The notes under the pieces were generated by a model. It did no database searches. It had not been told where the DNA came from and saw nothing but the letters and a program-made list of their open reading frames with translations. From positions 1 through 35,435 of IMG/VR virus record IMGVR_UViG_3300030606_000030: DNA of 35,435 nucleotides. One strand, given 5' to 3'. A program made the translations under genes and the position numbers. This DNA is from a virus. Taxonomy: Duplodnaviria; Caudoviricetes. Of the stretch, positions 936 through 34,174 are shown one piece after another. Positions within the stretch are counted from its first letter, which is position 1; every line of letters begins with the position of its first letter.

Positions 936-1447
936 CTGCGCCCAGCCTGCTCTCGCTCGACCTCGCCACTTCGGTCGGCTGGGCGCGGCTGCGCGACGGC
1001 CGGGTCGACTACGGCACCTACCGGCTGCCGGCGACCGGGCCCGACGTCGGGCGATTCCTCGCCGCCTACGAGGACTGGCTGCGAGTCGCGATGCTGGACG
1101 GGGTCGATGTTTGCGTATTCGAAGCCCCATTCGTGTCCGGGAAGACCAGCCAGGATACCGCGAGGAAGCTGCTCTGCCTCGCCGGGGTGACCGAGCTCGT
1201 GTGCCACCGGCGCGAGATCCGGTGCTTCGAGACCAACATCAAGACCGTGACGAAACACTTCGTCGGTCGCTGCCCGCCGCAACGCGCGGAGAAGAAGGCG
1301 GCGACCTTGAGGGCTTGCAGGCAGCGCGGTTGGCAACCGAAGAACGACGACGAGGCCGATGCACTCGCCGTGCTCGACTACGCCGTCCACTGGCTGCGGC
1401 TCCCGGTGAAGCTGCCGGTGGGCGGACTGTTCGGAGATGCGGCGTGA
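932..1447 (+). CDS. RuvC-like Holliday junction resolvase
   Basis: GTG start in GTGA overlap; motifs LLSLDLATSVGWA, VFEAPF, NDDEADALAV match RuvC acidic catalytic residues. Confidence 0.88.
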   Translation: MTAPSLLSLDLATSVGWARLRDGRVDYGTYRLPATGPDVGRFLAAYEDWLRVAMLDGVDVCVFEAPFVSGKTSQDTARKLLCLAGVTELVCHRREIRCFETNIKTVTKHFVGRCPPQRAEKKAATLRACRQRGWQPKNDDEADALAVLDYAVHWLRLPVKLPVGGLFGDAA

Positions 1448-2859
1448 TGCCTCCGCTCACAATCGATCTGACGGACGGACAACTCGCCATTGTGCGCCAC
1501 TTCGGCAACGCCATGGGCATGAGCGATGCCGAGGCCGCCAAGCACTTCATGTTGCGCGACGCGCTCGACTGGTACGCCAAGGTGATGGTGCGCGAGGCGC
1601 GTGAGGGCCAGCCATCAGCACCACTCCCGGCGGCCGAGAAACCGCCGCCCGTCGTACCTGTGCAGGAACCTGCCCACCGACAGCCGTTGCGAACCGAGGG
1701 CGCCCATGCCGCTTGGACGAACGAGGAATATGCCAAGCTTCGCCAGTGGCGCGCCGAAGGAGTGTCGGCCAGGCAGATGGCGGACCGGCTCGGCCGAAGC
1801 GTCGCCGCGGTCAACACCCGTATTTCCATGCTCAAGCTGCCGCGAGGCAAGCGGGCAAAAAAAAATGGCGTGGCCACACCCCATCGCCGGTTTACCAATC
1901 ACGCGCCCATCGATCCTGAGCGGACGCACGGACTCGCGGATGATCACCCAGCGGTCATTGACGGCCGCACCCTCTTTCCGAGCACCGTCGCGGACCCGGC
2001 CGCTCAAGCGAACGTGCTGATCTCCGGGGCCAACTCGCCTAAGCTGGGCGACTGCGTTGTCAAAGGCCCCTGGGCCGGCCTGCCGATCTACAGCCTGACA
2101 CTCGAGGAGCGCGCCACCTGTCCGCGTTCCTGTCACGTCTGGCGCGAGTGTTATGGGAACGGTATGCCCATGGCGCGGCGCCATCGGCACGGCCCGGAAC
2201 TCATCGCCGCCATCGATACCAATCTTCGAAAGCTGCTGGACGTGCACGAGCAGGGCATCGTCGTCCGGCTGCACCAGCTCGGCGACTTCTACGACAACCC
2301 CTATGTGGCCGCCTGGTGGATGTGGCTCAATGAGCTCCGCGCCCTGCGGGTCTTCGGCTATACCGCGCATCCGAAGAAATCCAAGATCGGATTGGCCATC
2401 GGCGAACTCAACCACTCCTTCCCCGACCGCTGCGCCATCCGCTTCTCCGCTGCCGAGCCCCAGCCCATGGGGGCGACGACGATCCGGCGGAAGGATCGGG
2501 GCCGCGTCGGCGAGGGCATCGTGTGCCCGGCGCAGACCGACGACACGGCCTGCTGCGGCAGTTGCGGGCTGTGCTGGCACCCGGAAGCCCGCGACAAGAC
2601 CATCGTCTTCATGCTGCACGGGCGGAAGTCCGCCGCCGAGGCGAAGCGGAATCCGGCCAAGGCGGGTAAGCCGTGGCCAGCGGAAAAACGAACCGGGCGA
2701 CCGGCCCTCACGGAGTCCGACAACGTGCGCGAGCACGGCGGCGTGTTCAGCCGCCCCATGCAGCGCCGGTGCTTGGAGTGTGACCAAATCTTCAAGACGC
2801 GATCGGTCGATCAGACCGTCTGCGGTCACTGCGGTACCGGCGCGAGTGCATCGCCATGA
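1447..2859 (+). CDS. Multidomain protein: GcrA/Myb-like HTH + Gp88-like Cys-rich domain + C-terminal zinc ribbon
   Basis: ATG in TGATG overlap; WTNEEYAKLRQWRAEGVSARQMADRLGRS (HTH); NSPKLG..TCPRSCHVWRECY..VRLHQLGDFY..CPAQT..CCGSCGLCW (Gp88-like); CLEC..CGHC. Confidence 0.75.
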   Translation: MPPLTIDLTDGQLAIVRHFGNAMGMSDAEAAKHFMLRDALDWYAKVMVREAREGQPSAPLPAAEKPPPVVPVQEPAHRQPLRTEGAHAAWTNEEYAKLRQWRAEGVSARQMADRLGRSVAAVNTRISMLKLPRGKRAKKNGVATPHRRFTNHAPIDPERTHGLADDHPAVIDGRTLFPSTVADPAAQANVLISGANSPKLGDCVVKGPWAGLPIYSLTLEERATCPRSCHVWRECYGNGMPMARRHRHGPELIAAIDTNLRKLLDVHEQGIVVRLHQLGDFYDNPYVAAWWMWLNELRALRVFGYTAHPKKSKIGLAIGELNHSFPDRCAIRFSAAEPQPMGATTIRRKDRGRVGEGIVCPAQTDDTACCGSCGLCWHPEARDKTIVFMLHGRKSAAEAKRNPAKAGKPWPAEKRTGRPALTESDNVREHGGVFSRPMQRRCLECDQIFKTRSVDQTVCGHCGTGASASP

Positions 2860-3127: not shown

Positions 3128-4953
3128 CGCGCGCCTTGCATGGTAATTGGCACGGCTCTTACGGGACCGCCAAGTGCCCGGCCCATGACGACCGCTCGCC
3201 CAGCCTCTCGATCAGCGACGGAGACAATGGCGGGCTTCTGGTCCACTGCCACGCCGGCTGCTCGCAGGATCAGGTCATCGGCGCGCTCTCCGATCGGGGG
3301 CTGTGGAACGGTCACACGACGGAGCGGGGCCTAAAGCCCGTCGCCCACGCGAAATTCGGCAAGCCCAATGAGATCTACGTCTATACCGAGGATTTCGAGG
3401 TGTGGCGTTGGGAGGCGATCGCGGATCGCCCAAAGGTAATCCGCCCGCTCTACCGGCTGGATGGCGAGTGGCAGTGGAAGCAAAGCATGCCGCCGCCTCG
3501 GCCGCTCTATCGCTTGGCTTCGTTGAAGGCGGACACGTTTCGTCCAGTTTTGCTTGTCGAGGGAGAGAAAACGGCCGAGACGGCTCAATTATTGCTTTCA
3601 CAGTTCACGGTCATGACCTGGCCCGGCGGCGCGAAAGCTATCAAGCAGATCGATTGGCACCCTCTCGGCCACCGGAAAGTGATCTGCTGGCCGGATGCGG
3701 ACGACGAAGGCAAGCGGAGCATGCGGGAGATCGCGGCGAAGCTGACGCATCTCGGGGCTGATGTGCGGATCGTCGACGTGCCGTCGAGTTTGCCGCGTAA
3801 ATGGGACCTGGCCGACAATATCCCGGACGGGCTGGACATCGAGGAGATGATCGCGGCCGCACCCCAGTACACGGCCGAGAAGGCCACTCTGGGTAGCGGG
3901 ATCGCGGTCGTGCGCCCCGAGACGCTGGCGGGAGAGCCTCCGGAAAGACCCTGGCTGGTGGCCGATTGGATTCCTCTCCGGGCCGTCACGATGCTCTCCG
4001 GCGACGGCGGACTCGGCAAGAGCCTGCTCGACATGCAGCTGCAGACCTGTTGCGCGGAGGGGCGCGCCTGGCTCGGTCAATTCGCAAAACGGTGTGTCAG
4101 CGTCGGCGTCTACTGCGAAGACGAAGTCGACGAGCTCCGGCGTCGCCAAATGGCGATCAACAAGGCATTGGGCATCGACACGCCGCCAGGAATGCACTGG
4201 GTAACCCGTGTCGGCTCCGACAACGCCTTGGTCACGTTCGACCGCTTCACCGGAGAAATGGAGCCTACCGGGCTATTTGAGGACCTGCATCGTCTGACGC
4301 AGGATCTCGGGGCCCGCCTGTTGATCCTTGACGCGCTCCACGACTTTTATCCCGGGAACGAGAACGATCGCGTGATGGCGCGACGGTTCATCAATCTCCT
4401 GACCCAGCTCGCCTGCGACATGGACGGCGCTATCGTCCTGAACGCGCATCCGTCCCTGAGCGGCCGCGCCAGCGGCACCGGCGAGTCCGGCAGCACCGCC
4501 TGGAGCAACGCCGTCCGCTCGCGGCTCTATTTCCACCGGCCGCTTGTCGACGGACTGGAGAGCAACGACCGCGACGCGCGGATTTTGAGCAACCGCAAGG
4601 CCAACTATTCGGCCAGTGGGAACACGATCCAATGCCGCTATCGCGATGGCATGTTCGAGCCGAAAGCGACTACGCCGACGAGCGCGGGAGCCGTGGAGCG
4701 CATATTCCTGGACGCCGTGGAGCGCCTTACGAAGCAAGGCGTCAACATGAGCTTCAGTTCGCACGCATCGAATTATGCCGTGCGAAACATCATGACCGCC
4801 GGGCTGAACGATGGAGCAACCAGTCAGGATCTTGCAAAAGCGCTTCGGAACCTCGAGACACGAGGGATCATCGGGACAGAAAAATATGGGAAGCCGAGCA
4901 ACCAGCACACGCGGCTGGCCATCGTTCGAAGGGATCTTTTCAATGCGGCGTAG
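3109..4953 (+). CDS. Primase-helicase fusion (zinc finger + Toprim + RepA/AAA_25 SF4 helicase)
   Basis: GAGGGG RBS and GTG at 3109; CPAHDDRSPSL..HCHAGC zinc finger; VEGEKTA..WPDADDEG Toprim; Walker A GDGGLGKS; Walker B LLILDAL; SGSTAWSNAVRSR. Confidence 0.92.
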   Translation: MDARGLTRALHGNWHGSYGTAKCPAHDDRSPSLSISDGDNGGLLVHCHAGCSQDQVIGALSDRGLWNGHTTERGLKPVAHAKFGKPNEIYVYTEDFEVWRWEAIADRPKVIRPLYRLDGEWQWKQSMPPPRPLYRLASLKADTFRPVLLVEGEKTAETAQLLLSQFTVMTWPGGAKAIKQIDWHPLGHRKVICWPDADDEGKRSMREIAAKLTHLGADVRIVDVPSSLPRKWDLADNIPDGLDIEEMIAAAPQYTAEKATLGSGIAVVRPETLAGEPPERPWLVADWIPLRAVTMLSGDGGLGKSLLDMQLQTCCAEGRAWLGQFAKRCVSVGVYCEDEVDELRRRQMAINKALGIDTPPGMHWVTRVGSDNALVTFDRFTGEMEPTGLFEDLHRLTQDLGARLLILDALHDFYPGNENDRVMARRFINLLTQLACDMDGAIVLNAHPSLSGRASGTGESGSTAWSNAVRSRLYFHRPLVDGLESNDRDARILSNRKANYSASGNTIQCRYRDGMFEPKATTPTSAGAVERIFLDAVERLTKQGVNMSFSSHASNYAVRNIMTAGLNDGATSQDLAKALRNLETRGIIGTEKYGKPSNQHTRLAIVRRDLFNAA

Positions 4954-4980
4954 GATATCCTGTCGGTTGAAAGAGCGAAC

Positions 4981-5115
4981 GTCCCGGTTGGTCCCGGTTC
5001 CCTGTAAGTCATTGAAATTGGCCCGTCCTGGTTATTTCGTCCTGGTTCGGTCCAGGTCCGTCCTGGTTATCCATAACACTTTGATATCATTCGCAGGTCT
5101 AGGTTCGTCCAGGTT
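4981..5115. repeat. Putative replication origin: eight GTCYNGGTY iteron-like repeats with IHF-like sites
   Basis: Copies at 4981, 4991, 5025, 5039, 5050, 5060, 5097, 5107; TAACACTTTGATA (5074-5086) fits IHF consensus YAANNNNTTGATW; TAAGTCATTGAAA (5005-5017) is one mismatch; directly downstream of the primase-helicase. Confidence 0.7.
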
Positions 5116-5388
5116 GCGTCCGGCTAGGTCCTACTACTACGTAGATAGAGGAGGTGGTGGTAGTGGTGGTCGGTGTAGGTCGAGACGACAGCGCAGCGCA
5201 GCGGGTGTCCCGGTCCTAGCGCTCCGCCTGGAGGGCTCGCTTGGACCCGGACCCCTTGCGCTCTCGATCCATCATCGAACGGCTTTCCTCTCACGTCCTG
5301 GATTCAACGTGCCAGTATCCGCGCCCGCGCGCGAGCGGCCCCACCCGCACCTTCCCGAAGGCGAAATTTTCAGACCGGAGAAAACACC

Positions 5389-5655
5389 ATGAGCAAACCA
5401 GCAACCAAACCGCCGTCGAGATCGTCGAAGCCCCGGCCGCCGCCCGCGCCGCCTAAGCACATGAGCCGTCCTACGGTGCGGCAGGTAACGGAGCTGCAAG
5501 GCTTGTTGCGCGAGGCCAATGTGGACAGGCTTCGAGCAATCCTGGCACGTGACCGCGCCGAGACTCGGCTGCTGCGCATTGCTCTGCTGTGCCTCGCCGC
5601 GGGGCTCGCCGTCGGCGGGGTGGCCATGTTCGGGATCCTTGCAGTGGGAGGGTGA
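5389..5655 (+). CDS. Small protein with C-terminal transmembrane helix
   Basis: GGAG RBS; hydrophobic C-terminus IALLCLAAGLAVGGVAMFGILAV. Confidence 0.7.
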   Translation: MSKPATKPPSRSSKPRPPPAPPKHMSRPTVRQVTELQGLLREANVDRLRAILARDRAETRLLRIALLCLAAGLAVGGVAMFGILAVGG

Positions 5656-5685
5656 ACACCATGCCGCTGCCCCTGATCAGCGGCC

Positions 5686-5819
5686 GGCGCGAGGCCAGCC
5701 GTGGCGTGATAGCCAGCTACATCCTGCCTCGCGCCATCTACACCATGCCGCCGTCCCAAACCGGCGGCCGCCACGGGACCATGCCACAGGTGACAACCAG
5801 CACCTTGCTGTCCCGTGGC
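5686..5819 (+). ncRNA. TIGR-like guide units 1-2 (stem-flanked dual-spacer units)
   Basis: GGCGCGAGG-CCA-GCCGTGGCG-TGATAGCCA-GCTACATCC-TG-CCTCGCGCC (5686-5735) and GCCACGGGA-CCA-TGCCACAGG-TGACAACCA-GCACCTTGC-TG-TCCCGTGGC (5770-5819); both have perfect 9-bp stems. Confidence 0.85.
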
Positions 5820-5870
5820 CCTCACAACCTCCGGCCCGGGTGTTTGGGATCGGGCTAGGAGACTAAGACC

Positions 5871-6605
5871 ATGACAATGAAGGATAAACTCGCAAGCGCC
5901 GGCGCGCTGCCGCCCGACCGGAGGCTCTACCTGCTGGCGGTGAAATGCCTACAGGGTGCGGACGGCGTGCCCACGCGCGCGGTGGAGGGTTTCCTTGACG
6001 GCCTGCGCGCGGAGCCGGACCTGCTGTTGGCATTGCTCGCCAAGGACGAAATCGGACAACCGGCGTGGCGCTATCTGAACGCGCGTGCTCAAGAGATGGC
6101 CGGGAAGCCGGCCCGCGGGGGCCAGTCAGCATCTGACAGCCATTTGAGCGGTGCCCCCGCGACCAAACCCCGCCCGGGCGGCCATCCTGGCACTGAAAAC
6201 CATATTGGCGGTGCCGCTCCGGGCGGTGGCGCGAACGGGGCGGGCCACCTTGACGCTGACATCCAAACTACCGGTGCCCGTCCCGTTTCGGTTCGCGCTC
6301 ACAATCGCAGGACACCCGAGGGTCATGCCGCGCTCACCAAGAGCTTCTGGGATCAGAAGCTCGGCCTGTTCGACATCACGCTCAAGACGGCCACGCGGCA
6401 GGATTTCGTCAACCTCAAGCGCAAGGGCATGGTGGTCGACCATATCGCGGATCGCGCGCTGACCGAGATCGATTGGCCGGACGATGTGACGCCGCTGCCC
6501 GAGGTGGCGACACAGGCGCAGGTGGAGGCGATCTTGGCGAGCGGGCGCAAGCTTCTCGGATCGCTCGGTATCGCGAAGGTCAAGGAGGTAGGCCATGCGG
6601 CGTGA
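5871..6605 (+). CDS. Hypothetical protein immediately upstream of Tas; central linker encoded by three guide units
   Basis: AGGAG RBS; helical N- and C-terminal parts joined by a Gly/Pro-rich linker with GQxxxDxH/GHxxxExH/GHxxxDxQ repeats; overlaps the Tas start. Confidence 0.8.
   Translation: MTMKDKLASAGALPPDRRLYLLAVKCLQGADGVPTRAVEGFLDGLRAEPDLLLALLAKDEIGQPAWRYLNARAQEMAGKPARGGQSASDSHLSGAPATKPRPGGHPGTENHIGGAAPGGGANGAGHLDADIQTTGARPVSVRAHNRRTPEGHAALTKSFWDQKLGLFDITLKTATRQDFVNLKRKGMVVDHIADRALTEIDWPDDVTPLPEVATQAQVEAILASGRKLLGSLGIAKVKEVGHAA
6114..6288 (+). ncRNA. TIGR-like guide units 3-5 (inside ORF 5871-6605)
   Basis: CCA-GTCAGCATC-TGACAGCCA-TTTGAGCGG-TG (CCA at 6122); CCA-TCCTGGCAC-TGAAAACCA-TATTGGCGG-TG (6182); CCA-CCTTGACGC-TGACATCCA-AACTACCGG-TG (6245); each closed by its own GC-rich stem. 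Confidence 0.85.
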
Positions 6606-7482
6606 TGGAAACCCGGAGGACGACGGAGGCCAACCAGATCATGACATCCAGACACGAACTGCCTCCGCGTTGGGAGAGGGGGCGGCCCATGGGCATCATG
6701 AAAGCCAAAGTAGTAGTGTCCGCTCCCTCTCCGAAGTCTGCGATCTGTTGGCCAATGCCCAGGCTAAGCGGCGCTTCTGCATCGGCCAGCAGTCGCGTCT
6801 CAACAATGCCCTCGGTGCGCTCGCACGCTGGCAGCTTGGCTGGAAGGTCAGCCTGCCGGAAGCGGAGCGGGAGCGCATTCGCAAGGACGCCGCTAAGCTG
6901 GTCAAGGCGGTCCAGGATGGCGAGCTGCCCGCCGGCATGGAGGATGCGGCGGAAACGCTGCTGCCCTACGTGCAGGACACCGCCATCGGGCGCACGCCCT
7001 TTGATCTGCGCCGCAAGGAGATCGAGAAGGAGATGCGGAAGCTGGTGCGGGATCTGCCGGCCTACGAGTTCGCAGAGAGTGTGAAGGGATTCGGGGATCT
7101 CGCCTTGGCGGTGATCGTGGGCGAGGCCGGGAACCTCGCCAACTATCCGCACTGGCAGCACTTGTGGAAACGGCTCGGCTGGGCGCCGCGCGAGGAATAC
7201 CCGAAGGGCGAGAAGTCCGAGGGCCGCAAGGTGCCGCGCCGGGTGAAGGGCGAGCTATACGGCACCGTCATCGAGCCGCTCATGAAGCTCAACGGTGACG
7301 GCAAATACAAAGCGCTCTACGACCGGCGCAAGGCGGACTACCTGGCGCGCTTCGAGGCCGACGGCAGCAAGACGCCCAAGCTGCACGCCCACAAGCTCGC
7401 CATGCGGGTGATGCTCAAAGAGCTGCTTAAGGATCTTTGGAAGGCCTGGAATGGCCAACTCGACCGTGACGACCAGACGTGA
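6595..7482 (+). CDS. tasA: TasA-like RNA-guided Nop/IS110-domain protein with no nuclease domain
   Basis: AAGGAGG RBS; RRFCIGQQSRLNNAL coiled coil; FAESVKGFGDLALAVIVGEAGNLANYPHWQHLWKRLGWAP (IS110 Transposase_20/Nop-like); C-terminal YKALYDRRK..HAHKLAMRVMLKELLKDLWKAW; no N-terminal DEDD RuvC or HNH; flanked by dual-spacer units. Confidence 0.85.
   Translation: MRRDGNPEDDGGQPDHDIQTRTASALGEGAAHGHHESQSSSVRSLSEVCDLLANAQAKRRFCIGQQSRLNNALGALARWQLGWKVSLPEAERERIRKDAAKLVKAVQDGELPAGMEDAAETLLPYVQDTAIGRTPFDLRRKEIEKEMRKLVRDLPAYEFAESVKGFGDLALAVIVGEAGNLANYPHWQHLWKRLGWAPREEYPKGEKSEGRKVPRRVKGELYGTVIEPLMKLNGDGKYKALYDRRKADYLARFEADGSKTPKLHAHKLAMRVMLKELLKDLWKAWNGQLDRDDQT
6624..6732 (+). ncRNA. TIGR-like guide units 6-7 (inside the 5' end of the Tas ORF)
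   Basis: CGGAGG-CCA-ACCAGATCA-TGACATCCA-GACACGAAC-TG-CCTCCG; GGAGAGGGGGCGGC-CCA-TGGGCATCA-TGAAAGCCA-AAGTAGTAG-TG-TCCGCTCCCTCTCC. Confidence 0.85.
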
Positions 7483-7785
7483 TGTGCCAACCAGGCTTTC
7501 CCTCGGGGCGGGCCAGCATAGCTGTGATTGCCAGAAATGGGCCGCCTGCCCCGCAGTTTCGGAGGACCAGAACATGCCTGACAACCAGCTTGTGCGTGTC
7601 CTCTATCGGCGGGAGGCCGTCCTCCTCATGACAACCAAATCAACTATGCCTCCCGCCGTTACCTTCGCCGTGGAGAGGGCTAGGCACCAACTGCTTGCCA
7701 GAGAAGGTTTGCCCAGACCGGGGCGCGCGCGGGCGGAGGGCCAGATAGAGGCTGATATCCAGTCCTGGCCTGCCCTCCGCCCCGC
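7439..7785 (+). ncRNA. TIGR-like array downstream of Tas, units 8-13
   Basis: Spacer pairs ACTCGACCG/GACGTGATG (CCA at 7455), GCATAGCTG/GAAATGGGC (7513), GAACATGCC/GCTTGTGCG (7567), TCCTCCTCA/AATCAACTA (7617, CCG variant), GGCACCAAC/GAGAAGGTT (7680, degenerate), GATAGAGGC/GTCCTGGCC (7741); loop TGANNNCCA; stems flank each unit. Confidence 0.88.
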
Positions 7786-7814
7786 AACCCTCTGCAACTG
7801 ATTCGGAGACCTGG

Positions 7815-8384
7815 ATGCCCAGCCGCGCCGCCCGCCGCCGCCGGTTCCGCAAGGCGAAGGCCAAGGAGATGACCCTGCCGGAGGCCGCCAACGACGAGGT
7901 CCCGCCCCCGCCCGAGCGGTTCGGCCACGGCGACGCGATCGAACGGGCGCGCGCCTCCGACGCCATGCCGTGGGGCGACCGCCCGCCGCTCCGGGTCGCG
8001 ACCGAGAACATGCTCGACAGGTATCTCCGCCAGGGCGCGATCAAGCAGCCTCAGCACGACGCCGGCATGCGGCTCTACCGCGAATGGCTCGGCACCGGTG
8101 CGAACCCCAAGGTGGTGGGCGGGTTCCTCATCCGCATCGAGGCGCCGCCAAGTTTCAGCGCGCACCAGGCCGAGATGCGCCTGCTGGTCAACCGCGCGGC
8201 CGCGGCAGTCGGTCCGGTCGCCTACGGGGTCCTGTTCCACGTCTGCTGCTGCAACCTCTCGGCGCGGGACTGGACGCTGGCGCGGGGTTACCGGGTGAAC
8301 GTCGCCAAATCGGCCGGCATCGTGATCCTCAAGGAGGCGCTGCACAGCCTCGAAAAGCACTACCGCGAAAGGGGAGGGCGATGA
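7815..8384 (+). CDS. DUF6456-like phage late transcription regulator
   Basis: GGAG RBS; ENMLDRYLRQGAIKQPQHDAGMRLYREW and C-terminal LKEALHSLEKHY; position between replication and packaging modules. Confidence 0.75.
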   Translation: MPSRAARRRRFRKAKAKEMTLPEAANDEVPPPPERFGHGDAIERARASDAMPWGDRPPLRVATENMLDRYLRQGAIKQPQHDAGMRLYREWLGTGANPKVVGGFLIRIEAPPSFSAHQAEMRLLVNRAAAAVGPVAYGVLFHVCCCNLSARDWTLARGYRVNVAKSAGIVILKEALHSLEKHYRERGGR

Positions 8385-8698
8385 GCCATAATGCCAAACC
8401 TGTAACCATCAGGGGGATAACCTATCCATCTGGTCGTGCTGCTGCATTGGCGCTCGGCTTATGCCCAGACACAGTTACTAAGGCAGCGAAACGCGGAACA
8501 TTGGATTTTGTGGGACTCGGGCCGCGTGGCTCGAAAGGTAGAAGTCACAGAGGTAAACCGATAATTATTCAAGGTGTACGATATCCATCACAACGAATTG
8601 CAGCGGAGGTATTGGGGGTTCACCAAGCCACGGTTTCCCAAGCAAAACGCCAGGGATGGCTTGATCGTCTCGGAACGAAACAGTCAAAGCTCAAATAA
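8381..8698 (+). CDS. Small DNA-binding protein with two NUMOD1/HTH-like repeats
   Basis: ATGA overlap; KPVTIRGITYPSGRAAALALGL and KPIIIQGVRYPSQRIAAEVLGV; visibly lower GC than neighbours. Confidence 0.8.
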   Translation: MSHNAKPVTIRGITYPSGRAAALALGLCPDTVTKAAKRGTLDFVGLGPRGSKGRSHRGKPIIIQGVRYPSQRIAAEVLGVHQATVSQAKRQGWLDRLGTKQSKLK

Positions 8699-8706
8699 TT
8701 TTCCGC

Positions 8707-8737
8707 TTGACAGGGGGCCCCCGGAAGTCGTTAGGCT
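8707..8737 (+). promoter_or_regulatory. Putative late promoter
   Basis: Perfect -35 TTGACA at 8707-8712 after an AT-rich tract; candidate -10 TAGGCT at 8732-8737 (19-bp spacing, suboptimal). Confidence 0.45.
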
Positions 8738-8768
8738 TGTCAGCGTTCCACAATTGGGTCAGCACCAT

Positions 8769-8798
8769 GCCCCGCCGGCATCGCCCGCGCGGGGCTTT
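8769..8798 (+). terminator. Terminator-like hairpin in the late leader
   Basis: GCCCCGC...GCGGGGC followed by TTT (short U tract). Confidence 0.4.
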
Positions 8799-8816
8799 CC
8801 GTTGCCGGGAGGGCAG

Positions 8817-29253: not shown

Positions 29254-29889
29254 ATGGCGAAGGCGATGCGCTACGGACAGATCCTCGGGCTGATCGAGCA
29301 GGTGAAGCCCGAGACGATCATCGAGATCGGCGTGTGGAACGGAGTCCGGGCGACCGAGATGGCGCTGGCCGCGCTCGCCCACAGTCCGCGCGTCCACTAT
29401 ACCGGCTACGACCTCTTCGAGGAGGCGACCGAGGAAACTAACCGGGACGAGCTGAACGCCAAGCGCAACTGCACGCTGGCCGACGTCGCCGCGCGGCTCG
29501 AAGCCTTCGGGCGCGACAATCCCGGCTTCAGCTTCGGTCTCGTGAAGGGCAACACGCGCGAGACGCTCAAGGAGAAACACCTCGTCGCCGACTTCGTCTA
29601 CATCGACGGCGGCCATTCGGTCGAGACCATCCGCTCGGACTACGCGGCGGTGAAGGACAGCCCGGTCGTAGTGTTCGACGATTATTACAAGCCGGATGCT
29701 GAGGGGAAGGGTGCAGATCTGGCCAAATTCGGTGCGAATGAGCTCATCGACGGCATCCGATGGTCTGATCACGACTATCTCGAAGCCGAAGTGCTGCCTT
29801 CGACCGATCCATTGAACGTCGGCGGCACGGTGCATCTGGCGGTCGTGCGGCACTTTCCGAATGAGCCTTCCGAGCCTGCCGTTTCGTGA
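29254..29889 (+). CDS. Class I SAM methyltransferase (Methyltransf_24-like)
   Basis: IIEIGVWNG, GYDLFE, DFVYIDGGHS, VVFDDY. Confidence 0.88.
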   Translation: MAKAMRYGQILGLIEQVKPETIIEIGVWNGVRATEMALAALAHSPRVHYTGYDLFEEATEETNRDELNAKRNCTLADVAARLEAFGRDNPGFSFGLVKGNTRETLKEKHLVADFVYIDGGHSVETIRSDYAAVKDSPVVVFDDYYKPDAEGKGADLAKFGANELIDGIRWSDHDYLEAEVLPSTDPLNVGGTVHLAVVRHFPNEPSEPAVS

Positions 29890-30427
29890 GCGCGGCCAAG
29901 GCGGCTGGTTCACGATCCCCAATATCCAGGATGGCGAGCGGACGCTCGAAGAAGGCATCCGCGGCATTGAAGTGCTGCGCCACGAGGCGCGCCATGCCCG
30001 GGTGCTGGATCTCGGCTGCGCCGAGGGCCTGATCGCGCGCTGGTTCATCGAGGCGGGGGCGCAATCGGCCGATGGCATCGACATTGATCGCAGGGCGCTC
30101 GCGCTTGGCCATGCGCTCGCCGAGCGACCGGATGGCCGGAAACTGCATCTCTGGTGGGCGGACTTCGACGATCCCGCGACCTGGCCGGGCCTCAAGATCG
30201 ACTACGACATCGTGATGTGCCTCTCGGTCTTGCACAAGCTGAGGAACCCGGCGCCGCTGCTCGATCTCGCCATCGCAAAGGCGTGCCGCTGGCTGGCGGT
30301 GCGCGCGCCGGCGCGCACGCTGAAGAGCGGCTTCGCCATCAAGACCATGATCGAGGAGGCCGGGTTCCGCATGGTCTCCGAGGTTATGGATATTCCCTGG
30401 GTGGGCATATTCCGAAGATGCACCTAG
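29861..30427 (+). CDS. Class I SAM methyltransferase
   Basis: VLDLGCAEG, GIDID, YDIVMCLSVLHK. Confidence 0.88.
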   Translation: MSLPSLPFRERGQGGWFTIPNIQDGERTLEEGIRGIEVLRHEARHARVLDLGCAEGLIARWFIEAGAQSADGIDIDRRALALGHALAERPDGRKLHLWWADFDDPATWPGLKIDYDIVMCLSVLHKLRNPAPLLDLAIAKACRWLAVRAPARTLKSGFAIKTMIEEAGFRMVSEVMDIPWVGIFRRCT

Positions 30428-31101
30428 ACGATCAGGTTCTCTTCGTCCATTGCCCGCGCACGTCAGGGACCGCCATCCGGCGGTCTCTTCTTTTGGGGGC
30501 CGATCCCAACGCCCGGGCGCAGTGGCCTCCCGACCTCGGCAAGCACGCCTTCGCCTCGCAGCTACGGGAACGTATCCCGGCGGAGGTGTGGGAGACGCGA
30601 TTCAAGTTCGCGGTCGTGCGCAATCCCTGGGACCGGTTGGTCAGCCTCTACCATCTTTTTCGGCGACCGACGGAGCCGACGTTTCAGGAACGGGCGGCTG
30701 GGGCGAAGTTGCCGATCAAGCTCGGCAAGTTCATGGCCGCGTTGCCAAAGGCGCCGAAGGCGGAGAAGGCCAAGCAACGGCTCTACGCGCAGCGGGCGCT
30801 CAAGCTGTCGTTCCTCGACTGGCTGAAGTTCTGCGATGACACGGGCTGGCAGGCCTGCCCCTATCTCGGCGTCGGGCCGATGACGCGAATCCCGCAGTCG
30901 CGGTGGTTCGACGGCCTCGACCGGGTGCTCCGCTTCGAGTACCGCGAGGAGATCGACGGCTTCCTGCGAGCCCGCGGCTATCCGCCGGCGGTGCCTGAGA
31001 ACGTCACGCTGCATCGGCCATGGATCGCCTACTACGATGCGCCAGCCTACGACCGGGTGGCGGCCATCTTCGCCGAGGACATCGCGCGGTTCGGCTACTG
31101 A
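30418..31101 (+). CDS. Sulfotransferase family 2 protein
   Basis: 5'-PSB LFVHCPRTSGTAI; 3'-PB FAVVRNPWDRLVSLY; C-terminal FAEDIARFGY. Confidence 0.88.
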   Translation: MHLDDQVLFVHCPRTSGTAIRRSLLLGADPNARAQWPPDLGKHAFASQLRERIPAEVWETRFKFAVVRNPWDRLVSLYHLFRRPTEPTFQERAAGAKLPIKLGKFMAALPKAPKAEKAKQRLYAQRALKLSFLDWLKFCDDTGWQACPYLGVGPMTRIPQSRWFDGLDRVLRFEYREEIDGFLRARGYPPAVPENVTLHRPWIAYYDAPAYDRVAAIFAEDIARFGY

Positions 31102-31102
31102 C

Positions 31103-31930
31103 ATGGGTTGCGGCGATGAAATCCTAGTGACCGGCGAGGCGCGGGCGCTGCAGGAGGCCGACCCGGCGCGGCGGCGGGTGCTCGTGGTGGATCGCCACAA
31201 TCGGCCGCGCTGGCATGCGCTGTGGGAACGCAATCCGCGCATCGTGCCACCGGGCAGCGAACGCAACGGCGAGCGGCTGCTGCGATTAGCTAACGCGGCC
31301 TGGACTCGACCCTATATCGACTGGCATCGCATGAAGGCGGAATTCGTGGCGATCCATCCGGGCCGCGAGTTCACCACCAAGAAGATCCGCGATCCCCGGT
31401 TGCCCTGGCGCTTCACCGGACACAAGGCCAAGCGTGGTGAACTCTATCTGGAGCGCTGCGAGAAGCGCGGCTACATCGTGATCGAGCCGCACTACAAGGC
31501 GGGCGTGTCGCCGAACAGGGACTGGGGATTCGAGCGCTATCAGCAGGTGGTCAATGCGCTGCCCGGCCTCGACTGGGTCCAGTTGAACCCAAATGGGTCC
31601 GAACTTCTGCGCGGCGTGCGCCACCTGCCGGCGGATCACTTCGCCTTGGCCTGCTGGCTGCTCTCGGGCGCGGCGCTCTACGTCGGGCCGGAGGGCGGGC
31701 TCTATCATGCTGCGGCGGCGCTCAGCGTGCCGGCAGTGGCGATCTTCGGCGGCTTCGTCAGCCCGGCCAACCAGGGCTACGACGATCCGAACTACGTGAA
31801 CCTTTACGAGCCGATGGACGGGCTAAGCCCCTGCGGTCAGCGGGTGCCGTGCCCGCACTGCAAGGACGCCATGGCGCGCATCACGCCCGAGCGGGTGATC
31901 GCGGGAGTGCGAAAGATCCTGAATGTCTGA
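31103..31930 (+). CDS. GT9 (heptosyltransferase-like) glycosyltransferase
   Basis: MGCGDEILVT; NRDWG; YVGPEGGLYHAAAALSVPAVAIFG; PCG..CPHC..MARIT. Confidence 0.85.
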   Translation: MGCGDEILVTGEARALQEADPARRRVLVVDRHNRPRWHALWERNPRIVPPGSERNGERLLRLANAAWTRPYIDWHRMKAEFVAIHPGREFTTKKIRDPRLPWRFTGHKAKRGELYLERCEKRGYIVIEPHYKAGVSPNRDWGFERYQQVVNALPGLDWVQLNPNGSELLRGVRHLPADHFALACWLLSGAALYVGPEGGLYHAAAALSVPAVAIFGGFVSPANQGYDDPNYVNLYEPMDGLSPCGQRVPCPHCKDAMARITPERVIAGVRKILNV

Positions 31931-33167
31931 CATCTACACCACTATCGCCGACTGCCGGCTGTGCGGCTGCGCCGATTTGGCCGAAGTCGTGCATCTTGGC
32001 GAGCGGCCGCTCTCGGGCACGTTCCCGCTACCGGACGAATCCGTGCCAAGCGGACCGCTCAGGCTCCTGCGCTGCCAAGCCTGCGGCCTCGTCCAGCTCG
32101 GCGAGAACTATCGCCCCGACCTGCTCTATGGAGAGAACTATGGCTACCGCTCCGGCCTCAACCGCGCCATGGTCGAGCATCTGCAGGACCTGGCTCGATA
32201 TGCAGCGCGCGTGGCTGATCTGCAGCCGGGTGACCTGGTCGTTGATGTCGGCTCAAACGACGGCACACTGCTTCGATCTTATCCGACCAAAGGGCTCTCC
32301 AAAGTCGGCATCGACCCGACCGCCGCCAAGTTCCGCGAGCACTACGAGCCGGAGGTCGAGGTCTATCCCGGCTTCTTCTCAGGCGAGGCCATCGAAGCGC
32401 TCGGTATAGCCTGCAAGGCCAGAATCGTCACCTCGATCGCCTGCTTCTACGACCTGGAGCGCCCGCTCGCGTTCGTAAACGACGTTCTGGAAGCGCTTGC
32501 CGACGATGGCATCTGGATCTCCGAGCAATCCTATCTCCCCGCGATGATCCAGGCGCACGCCTACGACACCATCTGCCACGAGCACCTGGAATACTACCGG
32601 CTCGCAGACTTCGCGTTCATCGCACGGCTCTATGGGCTCCAGATCCTCGACGTGGCGATGAACGACGTGAACGGCGGTTCGTTCCGGGTGACGCTCGCGC
32701 GCGAGGGCGCGCCCTATGTCGGCAATCCGGCGAAGGTGAACGAAACGCTCGCAGCGGAGGATCGTGATTATGGCTGGCTATGTGTGCCTCGGCCCATGCG
32801 AGATTTAGCCGGCTGGCTGCCCGGTCATCGCGACGCGCTGCTCTCGACCCTCGCCAACTTCAAGGCGCGCGGCAAGACGGTCATGGGCTACGGCGCCTCG
32901 ACCAAGGGCAATGTGCTCCTCAACTACTGTGGCATCGGGCCGGACCTGCTGCCCGCCATCGCCGAAGTGAACGAGGACAAGTTCGGCCGGGTGACGCCGG
33001 GCTCGGCCATCCCGATCATCCCGGAGGCGGAAGCGCGGGAGCGCGCCGACGCCTTCCTGGTACTGCCGTGGCACTTCCGGCGCGAGATCTGCCGCAAGGA
33101 GGAGGGGTTTCTGCTGAGTGGCGGGCAGCTGATCTTTCCGCTGCCCGAAGTCGAGGTGATCGGGTGA
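31923..33167 (+). CDS. NDP-hexose C3-methyltransferase (TcaB9/EryBIII/NovU family)
   Basis: Zn motif CRLCG..CQACGLVQL; DVGSNDG; YDTICHEHLEYY; GYGASTKGNVLLNY; LVLPWHF. Confidence 0.92.
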   Translation: MSDIYTTIADCRLCGCADLAEVVHLGERPLSGTFPLPDESVPSGPLRLLRCQACGLVQLGENYRPDLLYGENYGYRSGLNRAMVEHLQDLARYAARVADLQPGDLVVDVGSNDGTLLRSYPTKGLSKVGIDPTAAKFREHYEPEVEVYPGFFSGEAIEALGIACKARIVTSIACFYDLERPLAFVNDVLEALADDGIWISEQSYLPAMIQAHAYDTICHEHLEYYRLADFAFIARLYGLQILDVAMNDVNGGSFRVTLAREGAPYVGNPAKVNETLAAEDRDYGWLCVPRPMRDLAGWLPGHRDALLSTLANFKARGKTVMGYGASTKGNVLLNYCGIGPDLLPAIAEVNEDKFGRVTPGSAIPIIPEAEARERADAFLVLPWHFRREICRKEEGFLLSGGQLIFPLPEVEVIG

Positions 33168-34174
33168 AGCGCGCGTTCGTCACCGGGATCTCCGGTCAGG
33201 ACGGCGCCTACCTCGCGCAGTTCCTGCTCGGCCAGGGCTATCAGGTATTCGGTGGTGAGCGGCGCGGTTCCTCGCCGAACAACTGGCGCCTGAAGGCGCT
33301 CGGCATCCATGGCGAGGTCGAACTGGTGCCGTTCGAGCTGGCCGACGATGCCAGCATCTACCGCGCGATCGAGGTCGCCCAGCCCGACGAGATCTACAAC
33401 CTTGCGGCCCAGTCTTTCGTGCCGGTCAGCTTCCAGCAGCCATGCTACACCGGCGACGTGAACGGCAGCGCCGTGGCGCGCATCCTGGAGGCGATCCGGC
33501 ACCTCGCCCCCGAGTGCCGGTTCTATCAGGCTTCCAGCTCGGAGATGTTCGGCCTCGCGCACGAGACGCCGCAGCGCGAGACCACTCCCTTTCACCCGCG
33601 CAGCCCCTATGCAGCCGCCAAAGCCTATGCCCACTATCTGACGGTCAACTACCGCGAGGCCTACGGGCTGCACGCCTCCTGCGGCATCGCGTTCAACCAC
33701 GAGAGTCCGCTCAGGGGCGCGGAGTTCGTCACCAAGAAGATCGTCGTCGATCTTGCGCGCATCCACCGCGGCGACCTCGATTGCCTCAGGCTCGGCAACC
33801 TAGACGCTCGGCGCGACTGGGGCTTCGCCGGCGACTACGTGAAGGGCATGTGGCAGATGCTACAGCAATCCGGGCCTGAGGATTACATCCTCGCGACCGG
33901 CGAAACCCATTCGATCCGGGAATTCGTCGAGTGGGCCTGCGCCGTGCTCGACTGGAGCATCGAATGGACCGGCGAAGGCGGCGAGGAGCGCGGCATCGAA
34001 ACCAGCAGCGGGCGGATGCTAGTGGCGATCGACCCGGCCCTCTACCGGCCTTCGGACGTGCCGGCGCTGCTCGGTGACGCCACCAAGGCGCGCGAGACCT
34101 TCGGCTGGCAGCCGCTCCATACCGCCGGCCAGATCGCCTTCATGATGATGGACCACGAGCTTTCTCATGTCTGA
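33164..34174 (+). CDS. gmd: GDP-mannose 4,6-dehydratase
   Basis: TGISGQDGAYLA, PDEIYNLAAQSFV, FYQASSSEMFG, PRSPYAAAK, FNHESPLRG, RDWGFAGDYV. Confidence 0.96.
   Translation: MKRAFVTGISGQDGAYLAQFLLGQGYQVFGGERRGSSPNNWRLKALGIHGEVELVPFELADDASIYRAIEVAQPDEIYNLAAQSFVPVSFQQPCYTGDVNGSAVARILEAIRHLAPECRFYQASSSEMFGLAHETPQRETTPFHPRSPYAAAKAYAHYLTVNYREAYGLHASCGIAFNHESPLRGAEFVTKKIVVDLARIHRGDLDCLRLGNLDARRDWGFAGDYVKGMWQMLQQSGPEDYILATGETHSIREFVEWACAVLDWSIEWTGEGGEERGIETSSGRMLVAIDPALYRPSDVPALLGDATKARETFGWQPLHTAGQIAFMMMDHELSHV

What the first reader, a model, noticed from the sequence alone, without database searches (positions are those of the whole stretch)
6595..7501. The Tas gene carries guides in its own 5' end and across its stop codon
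Seen: a strong RBS (AAGGAGG, 6582-6588) precedes ATG 6595; codons ~10-46 are units 6-7 (GGQPDHDIQTRTAS, AAHGHHESQSSSVRS); unit 8 overlaps the last codons, with the TGA stop (7480-7482) inside its spacer B. Inferred: Tas binding or processing of its own mRNA could give negative feedback, and a change of spacer 8B would alter the protein's C-terminus.
Basis: partly seen in the sequence, partly recalled or inferred. Interest (0 to 1): 0.75.

Follow-up and report, generated by a model that had tools for sequence, protein, structure and literature searches.

The report
Guide hairpins overlapping tasA gene ends
A phage gene for a small protein predicted to bind DNA under RNA guidance (TasA) has two guide-like hairpins in frame at its start and one across its stop codon, so one transcript likely serves as both message and guide source; the layout is real but a 2026 preprint already describes it for this family.

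Summary
Observation confirmed. ORF 6595-7482 is a nuclease-free Tas (TasA) of a stem-loop TIGR system in a phage-like contig with 12 units. Units 6-7 lie in frame in codons 9-46; the stop codon lies in spacer B of unit 8. Start 6595 is well supported: strong RBS, no rival start, and in relatives such starts overlap an upstream gene's stop (17 of 21, 3% by chance) while 5' units avoid in-frame stops (2 of 89, against 18 of 89 in the other frame). A hairpin anchored on the last-helix codons is common (21 of 71 loci), but a stop inside it occurs at the chance rate (5 of 21 in either frame) and tails run 2-180 residues, so the 'spacer 8B alters the C-terminus' idea is true on paper and probably meaningless. 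Feedback on Tas level is plausible but untested; no RNA data, no targets found. Intragenic tigRNAs at 5' and 3' ends, and a link to translation, are already in a 2026 preprint, and this scan noted the layout in at least six other genomes.

The parts
6582..6589 (+). Shine-Dalgarno site of tasA
   Evidence: -12.7 kcal/mol, strongest of the five starts scored
6595..7482 (+). tasA, 295 aa: disordered residues 1-44, coiled coil plus Nop domain 45-285, 10-residue tail; no nuclease domain
6619..6671 (+). unit 6 hairpin (core 6630-6661; spacers 6633-6641 and 6651-6659), in frame in the N-terminus
6672..6732 (+). unit 7 hairpin (core 6687-6718; spacers 6690-6698 and 6708-6716), in frame, ends where the first helix begins
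7439..7501 (+). unit 8 hairpin (core 7455-7486); 5' arm is the codons W282-G287 of the last Nop helix, spacer B 7476-7484 holds the TGA stop 7480-7482, 3' arm is untranslated in the tas frame
5871..6605 (+). upstream companion ORF, 244 aa, no family; holds units 3-5 in frame (cores at 6122, 6182, 6245); its stop overlaps the tas start by 11 bases
   Evidence: relatives in 5 of the other 78 loci
5661..5858 (+). possible 65-aa ORF with a strong RBS that reads through units 1-2 (cores at 5695, 5779)
   Evidence: no PHROG match; coding status not established
7502..7790 (+). downstream units 9-12 (cores at 7513, 7567, 7617, 7741) and a degenerate unit near 7683 that does not fold

Best explanation
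This is a phage stem-loop TIGR-TasA locus in which guide-like hairpins lie in the floppy ends of the tasA reading frame, so one transcript likely serves both as Tas message and as guide precursor, and the peptides that the hairpins encode are likely passengers. Shown by sequence and comparison: the units, their frame, the overlap with the stop. Strongly inferred: translation starts at 6595, coupled to the upstream gene, and runs through units 6-7; selection keeps the 5' units free of stop codons but does not act on the 3' unit. Inferred from other family members: the hairpins are cut out as tigRNAs, load a TasA dimer and guide it to 18-bp DNA sites, where it blocks transcription. Inferred and untested: cutting out unit 6, 7 or 8 would destroy that copy of the message (units 6-7 separate the RBS from the Nop core; unit 8 removes the stop codon and the end of the last helix), which gives a built-in trade-off between guide and protein output; I put the chance that this acts as Tas-dependent feedback at about 0.3.
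For: Tas identity: profile of 37 relatives matches TasR 9MTY (E 4e-19) and TasH (E 6e-8); the model's top ten Foldseek hits are all TasH/TasR chains. Start: only other in-frame starts before residue 53 are TTG 6670, CTG 6745, TTG 6748, none with an SD (0.1 to -0.5 kcal/mol), the last two inside the first helix H45-80. Close relatives P0004 and P0006 begin MRRE with the unit peptide also at residue 12; P0002/P0003 carry 1 unit, the window and P0004 2, P0006 about 4, by protein signature only. In 72 non-redundant loci with 5' context, 37 have a unit within 250 bases before the first helix and 22 of these have no in-frame start after the last unit (one, L058, has its unit outside the ORF and was left out afterwards). 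For the other 21 the best-SD start overlaps the stop of an upstream ORF of 100 codons or more in 17, against 216 of 6784 control positions. 5' units: 8 of 97 in the frame where box D reads as a stop, against 29 of 49 downstream units; in-frame stops in 2 of 89, against 18 of 89 in the other frame and 17 of 98 downstream. 3' unit within 20 bases of the last tryptophan codon in 21 of 71 loci; with a no-bulge stem rule 22 of 71, against 8 of 2087 background windows; register-specific stem in 13 of 71, 0-1 when slid. Residues 1-40 have pLDDT 46-66 and the tail about 65. Preprint 10.64898/2026.09.09.750476: intragenic units map to disordered regions, intragenic BlTasA guides are recovered from the purified complex, TasA represses transcription.
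Against: Nothing here shows expression, processing or binding for this locus. Units within a locus and related loci are not independent, so the Fisher p values (2e-4 to 5e-4) overstate certainty. 35 of 72 loci had no unit of this pattern near the 5' end and 50 of 71 none at the 3' end (my pattern misses variant units, e.g. L055), so the overlap is not required in the family. The CUU processing motif of the preprint is within 22 bases of only 3 of 12 units. No DNA target was found for any spacer pair in the window. Unit 6 folds only weakly (z -1.57) and an alternative fold pairs the RBS region with it in one context.
Confidence: 0.72

Rival explanations
1. Dedicated negative feedback: excess Tas binds the box C/D hairpins in its own mRNA and blocks elongation or triggers cutting, and the layout is kept for this purpose.
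For: The last 5' unit sits at a fixed place (31-35 bases before the first helix marker in 12 of the 22 loci) and the 3' unit is anchored on the last-helix codons; precedents are L7Ae autoregulation (PMC5539422, abstract) and TnpB making its guide from its own mRNA (PMC10278001, passages); the preprint suggests a link between maturation and translation.
Against: [quoted passage not shown] No direct test was possible.
Confidence: 0.3
2. Neutral packing: hairpin units spread by duplication through a compact operon and survive wherever the frame stays open and the protein is floppy; guides come from a minority of transcripts or from internal promoters, with no effect on Tas level.
For: Unit counts of 1-4 among close relatives and about 10 in L020; both stop-free frames are used (58 and 31 of 97); 3' stops at chance rate; preprint leaves internal promoters open.
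Against: Fixed registers at both ends over 30-40% protein identity suggest old, maintained positions; no + strand sigma-70 promoter was found in 4900-8800 (a weak test).
Confidence: 0.45
3. The guide sequence tunes the protein: changing spacer 8B switches the Tas C-terminus and so its activity or stability.
For: Stop in spacer B also in L008 and L010 (3 of 21 with the window) and L055; P0002 (78% identical) reads through the whole unit.
Against: 5 of 21 first 3' units hold a stop in the tas frame and 5 of 21 in the other frame; tails of 2-180 residues, median 19, in 71 loci; P0004 and P0006 end two residues after the last tryptophan; two frames are used.
Confidence: 0.06
4. Units 6-7 are a 5' untranslated array and translation starts after 6732.
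For: Many relatives start 3-5 residues before the first helix; 15 of 37 loci have an in-frame start after the last unit.
Against: The only candidates (CTG 6745, TTG 6748) lack an SD and cut the first helix; strong SD and stop-start overlap at 6595.
Confidence: 0.05

Closest known systems
Intragenic stem-loop tigRNAs in tas genes, e.g. Bifidobacterium longum TasA (Xu et al., bioRxiv 10.64898/2026.09.09.750476)
   Same: Stem-loop units at the 5' end, 3' end or inside tas, in frame, in disordered regions; nuclease-free TasA; proposed link between guide maturation and Tas translation.
   Different: BlTasA's embedded guide maps to the wedge loop, here they are at both ends. The parts I read do not single out a unit that straddles the stop codon or a stem built on the last-helix codons, and do not use the words feedback or autoregulation. 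Boxes here are CCA/UG and the CUU motif is mostly absent.
Stem-loop TIGR-TasA of the Peromyscus gut contig (PlTasA; Faure et al., PMC12045711; structure in bioRxiv 10.64898/2026.08.11.744272)
   Same: TasA without nuclease, sub-arrays of hairpins with two spacers between box C and box D, each processed as one unit.
   Different: Its sub-arrays are described as separated by intergenic sequence; here 8 of 12 units overlap likely reading frames.
TnpB making omegaRNA from its own mRNA (PMC10278001)
   Same: Guide derived from the effector's own message.
   Different: Unrelated protein and RNA; TnpB cuts the RNA itself, whereas the stem-loop Tas processing enzyme is unknown.
L7Ae autoregulation through a k-turn in its own mRNA (PMC5539422)
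   Same: A box C/D-binding protein limiting its own translation is the model for the feedback idea.
   Different: There the site is in the 5' UTR and feedback was measured; here the sites are in coding sequence, begin about 24 bases after the start codon, and nothing is measured.

Membership tests
TIGR-Tas | Nop-domain protein related to characterised Tas | tested here: met
   9MTY E 4e-19, TasH E 6e-8; Foldseek ranks 1-10 TasH/TasR, TM 0.39-0.48 by query; Pfam Transposase_20 only below cut-off
TIGR-Tas | [quoted passage not shown] | tested here: met
   11 strict plus 1 near unit, two 9-base spacers each, 0.05 expected
TIGR-Tas | Units are expressed, processed and bound by Tas | not testable with these tools
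   needs small-RNA sequencing of the purified complex
TIGR-Tas | RNA-guided binding of an 18-bp DNA target | tested here: inconclusive
   no site better than chance in the window; no exact target for units 6, 7, 8 in viral contigs
Stem-loop TIGR subtype | Palindromic flanks instead of edge repeats | tested here: met
   all 12 units close a terminal stem in the predicted fold; z from -1.28 to -5.01
Stem-loop TIGR subtype | No long C-terminal Y/H processing loop | tested here: met
   10 residues after the last tryptophan, none Y or H
Stem-loop TIGR subtype | CUU at the stem base (described as frequent, not universal) | tested here: not met
   CTT within 22 bases of the core in 3 of 12 units
TasA | No RuvC or HNH domain | tested here: met
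   residues 1-44 unstructured, remainder all helical
Intragenic tigRNA (Xu et al. 2026) | Unit inside the tas reading frame without breaking it, in a disordered region | tested here: met
IS110 transposase (considered) | N-terminal DEDD RuvC-like domain and catalytic serine wedge | tested here: not met
   no N-terminal folded domain; no DEDD_Tnp_IS110 Pfam hit; IS110 structures rank below Tas

The most novel reading that the evidence does not exclude
In this TasA clade the message is bracketed by guide hairpins at fixed registers, one just before the first helix and one built on the last-helix codons, so that Tas-dependent excision leaves a head-less, stop-less mRNA: a self-limiting circuit that sets the ratio of protein to guide and is translationally coupled to the companion gene upstream.
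Probability: 0.3. Interest if true: 0.55.

Novelty: new member of a known kind. Interest (0 to 1): 0.24.

Why it matters
As a locus it is one more case of a layout already reported. What it adds is modest: comparative evidence that the 5' guides really are translated (stop avoidance, coupled starts), that the 3' hairpin is anchored on the last-helix codons across the clade, and that the stop-in-spacer is chance. If feedback were shown, it would explain how these nuclease-free repressors balance protein and guide and would matter for anyone recoding tas genes for tools, since codon optimisation would erase native guides. A cultured phage with an intragenic unit (RHph_X2_25) offers a way to test this.

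Tried and rejected
Self-targets: all 12 spacer pairs, both geometries, gaps 0-2, both strands of the window; best non-self sites had 3 mismatches, like shuffled spacers. Exact targets of units 8, 6, 7 (spacer A then reverse complement of B, no gap; geometry inferred from the 3' overhang) in viral contigs: 0, 0, 0; the other nine units and gapped forms were not searched. Expression: no RNA holder listed; three DNA contig runs showed no variant in units 6-8, but only X1, a possible source of this DNA, covers unit 8 fully. Idea that downstream arrays are kept as open frames (ORF 7451-7801 reads through five units): 6 of 11 arrays open against 5.3 expected, p 0.43; 0.13 chance for this window, so not supported here. 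Close relatives at DNA level: none in viral contigs, one at 50% in metagenomes besides the window's own record, so spacer 8 could not be compared between near strains; P0002-P0006 are protein only. Promoter/terminator scan: no + strand site. Rfam: no match. Companion ORF: no Pfam, PHROG or usable Atlas match. Searches for a published Tas autoregulation claim found only the preprint's 'may link' statement. Scan notes by place, by sequence and by stop-codon/feedback words returned nothing.

Full report
Context. The window is a tailed-phage-like contig: primase/helicase, DNA methylase, terminase, portal, prohead protease and capsid genes by Pfam. The assembly held for it is the window alone. The finding lies between the replication genes and the packaging genes, in a run of + strand genes from 5389 to 8384.

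Observation. The pattern CCN-N9-TGAnnnCCA-N9-TG occurs 11 times on the + strand and never on the - strand, with a twelfth unit ending in CG; 0.05 are expected. All 12 close a terminal stem in the predicted fold. Units 1-2 lie in a possible 65-aa ORF, 3-5 in frame in a 244-aa ORF, 6-7 in frame in tas, 8 across the tas stop, 9-12 downstream. Box D followed by A spells TGA, so one of the three frames is closed in every unit; all coding units use one of the other two.

The protein. A search with residues 47-295 gave 39 proteins including itself. A profile of 37 of them (two fragments left out) matches TasR 9MTY at E 4e-19 and TasH at 6e-8. The AlphaFold model (mean pLDDT 88) has no structure in residues 1-44, helices from 45 to 285 and a low-confidence tail; its ten best Foldseek matches are Tas chains, followed by IS110 recombinases and Nop5/Prp31. 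It is a TasA.

Is the 5' array translated? In the window the other in-frame starts are TTG 6670, CTG 6745 and TTG 6748, none with an SD; 6595 scores -12.7 kcal/mol. I fetched 80, 9 and 2 loci, replaced the window's own record by the window, and kept 79 of 91 after removing 12 near-duplicates. Of 72 with enough 5' context, 37 have a unit within 250 bases before the first helix; 22 have no in-frame start after the last unit, 15 do. Of 97 such units, 8 are in the closed frame, against 29 of 49 units downstream of the stop. Of the 89 in open frames, 2 hold an in-frame stop, against 18 of 89 read in the other open frame and 17 of 98 downstream readings. For 21 loci (the 22 minus L058, whose unit is outside the ORF) the best-SD start overlaps the stop of an upstream ORF of 100 codons or more in 17, against 216 of 6784 control positions. 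Units and loci are not independent, so p values are optimistic, but three separate signals agree. At protein level the closest relatives start at the same place and differ by whole units.

The 3' unit. A unit begins within 20 bases of the last tryptophan codon in 21 of 71 loci. A stricter no-bulge rule gives 22 of 71 against 8 of 2087 background windows, but misses the window's own bulged stem. At the commonest register, 13 of 71 loci have at least 10 of 11 pairs, 0-1 when the partner is slid; pair types vary at the inner positions, though these 13 were chosen for pairing. So a hairpin whose 5' arm is the codons of the last helix is a clade trait. The stop is after the unit core in 16 of 21, in spacer B in 3 (window, L008, L010) and in the loop in 2; L055 has the window's geometry but fails my box threshold. 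A stop inside the unit occurs in 5 of 21 in the tas frame and 5 of 21 in the other frame, no different from 17 of 98 downstream. Tails are 2-180 residues, median 19. The stop in spacer B is therefore what chance gives once the tail is free to vary. Its general consequence is not special to this locus: wherever such a unit is cut out at its stem base, the message loses its stop codon (inference).

How it likely works. Shown: anatomy and frames. Strongly inferred: coupled translation from 6595 through units 6-7. Taken from the family: hairpins are processed to single guides and TasA binds DNA and represses transcription. Untested: whether making guides 6-8 costs message, and whether that depends on Tas. 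Against a dedicated circuit, half the relatives show no unit of this pattern near the 5' end, units also sit in the neighbour gene, and the stem-loop processing enzyme is unknown. Targets were not found.

Prior knowledge. Preprint 10.64898/2026.09.09.750476 (I read parts 1-5 of 7 of the text, and passages; supplements not seen) reports stem-loop arrays inside tas at the 5' end, 3' end or internally, in frame and in disordered regions, says this may link maturation and translation, recovers intragenic guides for BlTasA, and notes that internal promoters are not excluded. The words feedback and autoregulation do not occur in it. Also consulted: PMC12045711 (section 6 and passages); bioRxiv 2026.07.30.739390, 2026.08.11.744272, PMC13421893, PMC10705468, PMC10278001 (passages); bioRxiv 2026.07.15.738680 (no passage matched); PMC5539422 (abstract). 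The non-stop mRNA/tmRNA consequence rests on my own knowledge. The preprint's supplements and TIGRSafari may already list this locus or stop-spanning units. Earlier notes of this scan report the same layout in at least six other genomes; they are leads, not support.

Verdict. Real, correctly described, and a new member of a known kind. Interest 0.24.

Noticed in passing
window 5871-6605: Companion ORF with three in-frame units in its middle; relatives lie before tas in 5 of the other 78 loci (L003, L015, L016, L018, L076); no family found.
   Followed up: partly
window 7451-7801: A 116-codon frame starting inside the last tas codons stays open through units 8-12 and ends 14 bases before the next gene; weak SD; about 13% chance, and not enriched in relatives.
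   Followed up: yes
window 7683-7712: A degenerate unit with a shortened loop between units 11 and 12; it does not fold (z +1.09).
   Followed up: partly
L014, L018, L019, L048, L050 (about 200-280 bases into the core): Two in-frame units inserted inside the coiled-coil region of tas.
   Followed up: no
L020 2451-3110: About ten units in alternating open frames inside one 200-codon N-terminal extension.
   Followed up: no
L092 1250-1281 (Rhizobium phage RHph_X2_25, MW960032.1): A cultured phage whose annotated tas-like gene holds one unit in its N-terminal part and a hairpin just after the stop; a possible test system.
   Followed up: partly
loci, up to 400 bases after the tas stop: Downstream units are enriched in the frame that is closed relative to tas (29 of 49); may reflect a few arrays with three-base periodicity; unexplained.
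   Followed up: partly
window 1111-2859: ORF with a GcrA-like and a gp88/DUF7227-like region, a hint of an alphaproteobacterial host.
   Followed up: no
window 5029-5135: Short repeats rich in GTCC(T/A)GGTT between the primase gene and the TIGR operon, origin-like in position.
   Followed up: no
window 29254-34174: Methyltransferase, glycosyltransferase, C-methyltransferase and GDP-mannose dehydratase genes at the end of the phage contig.
   Followed up: no
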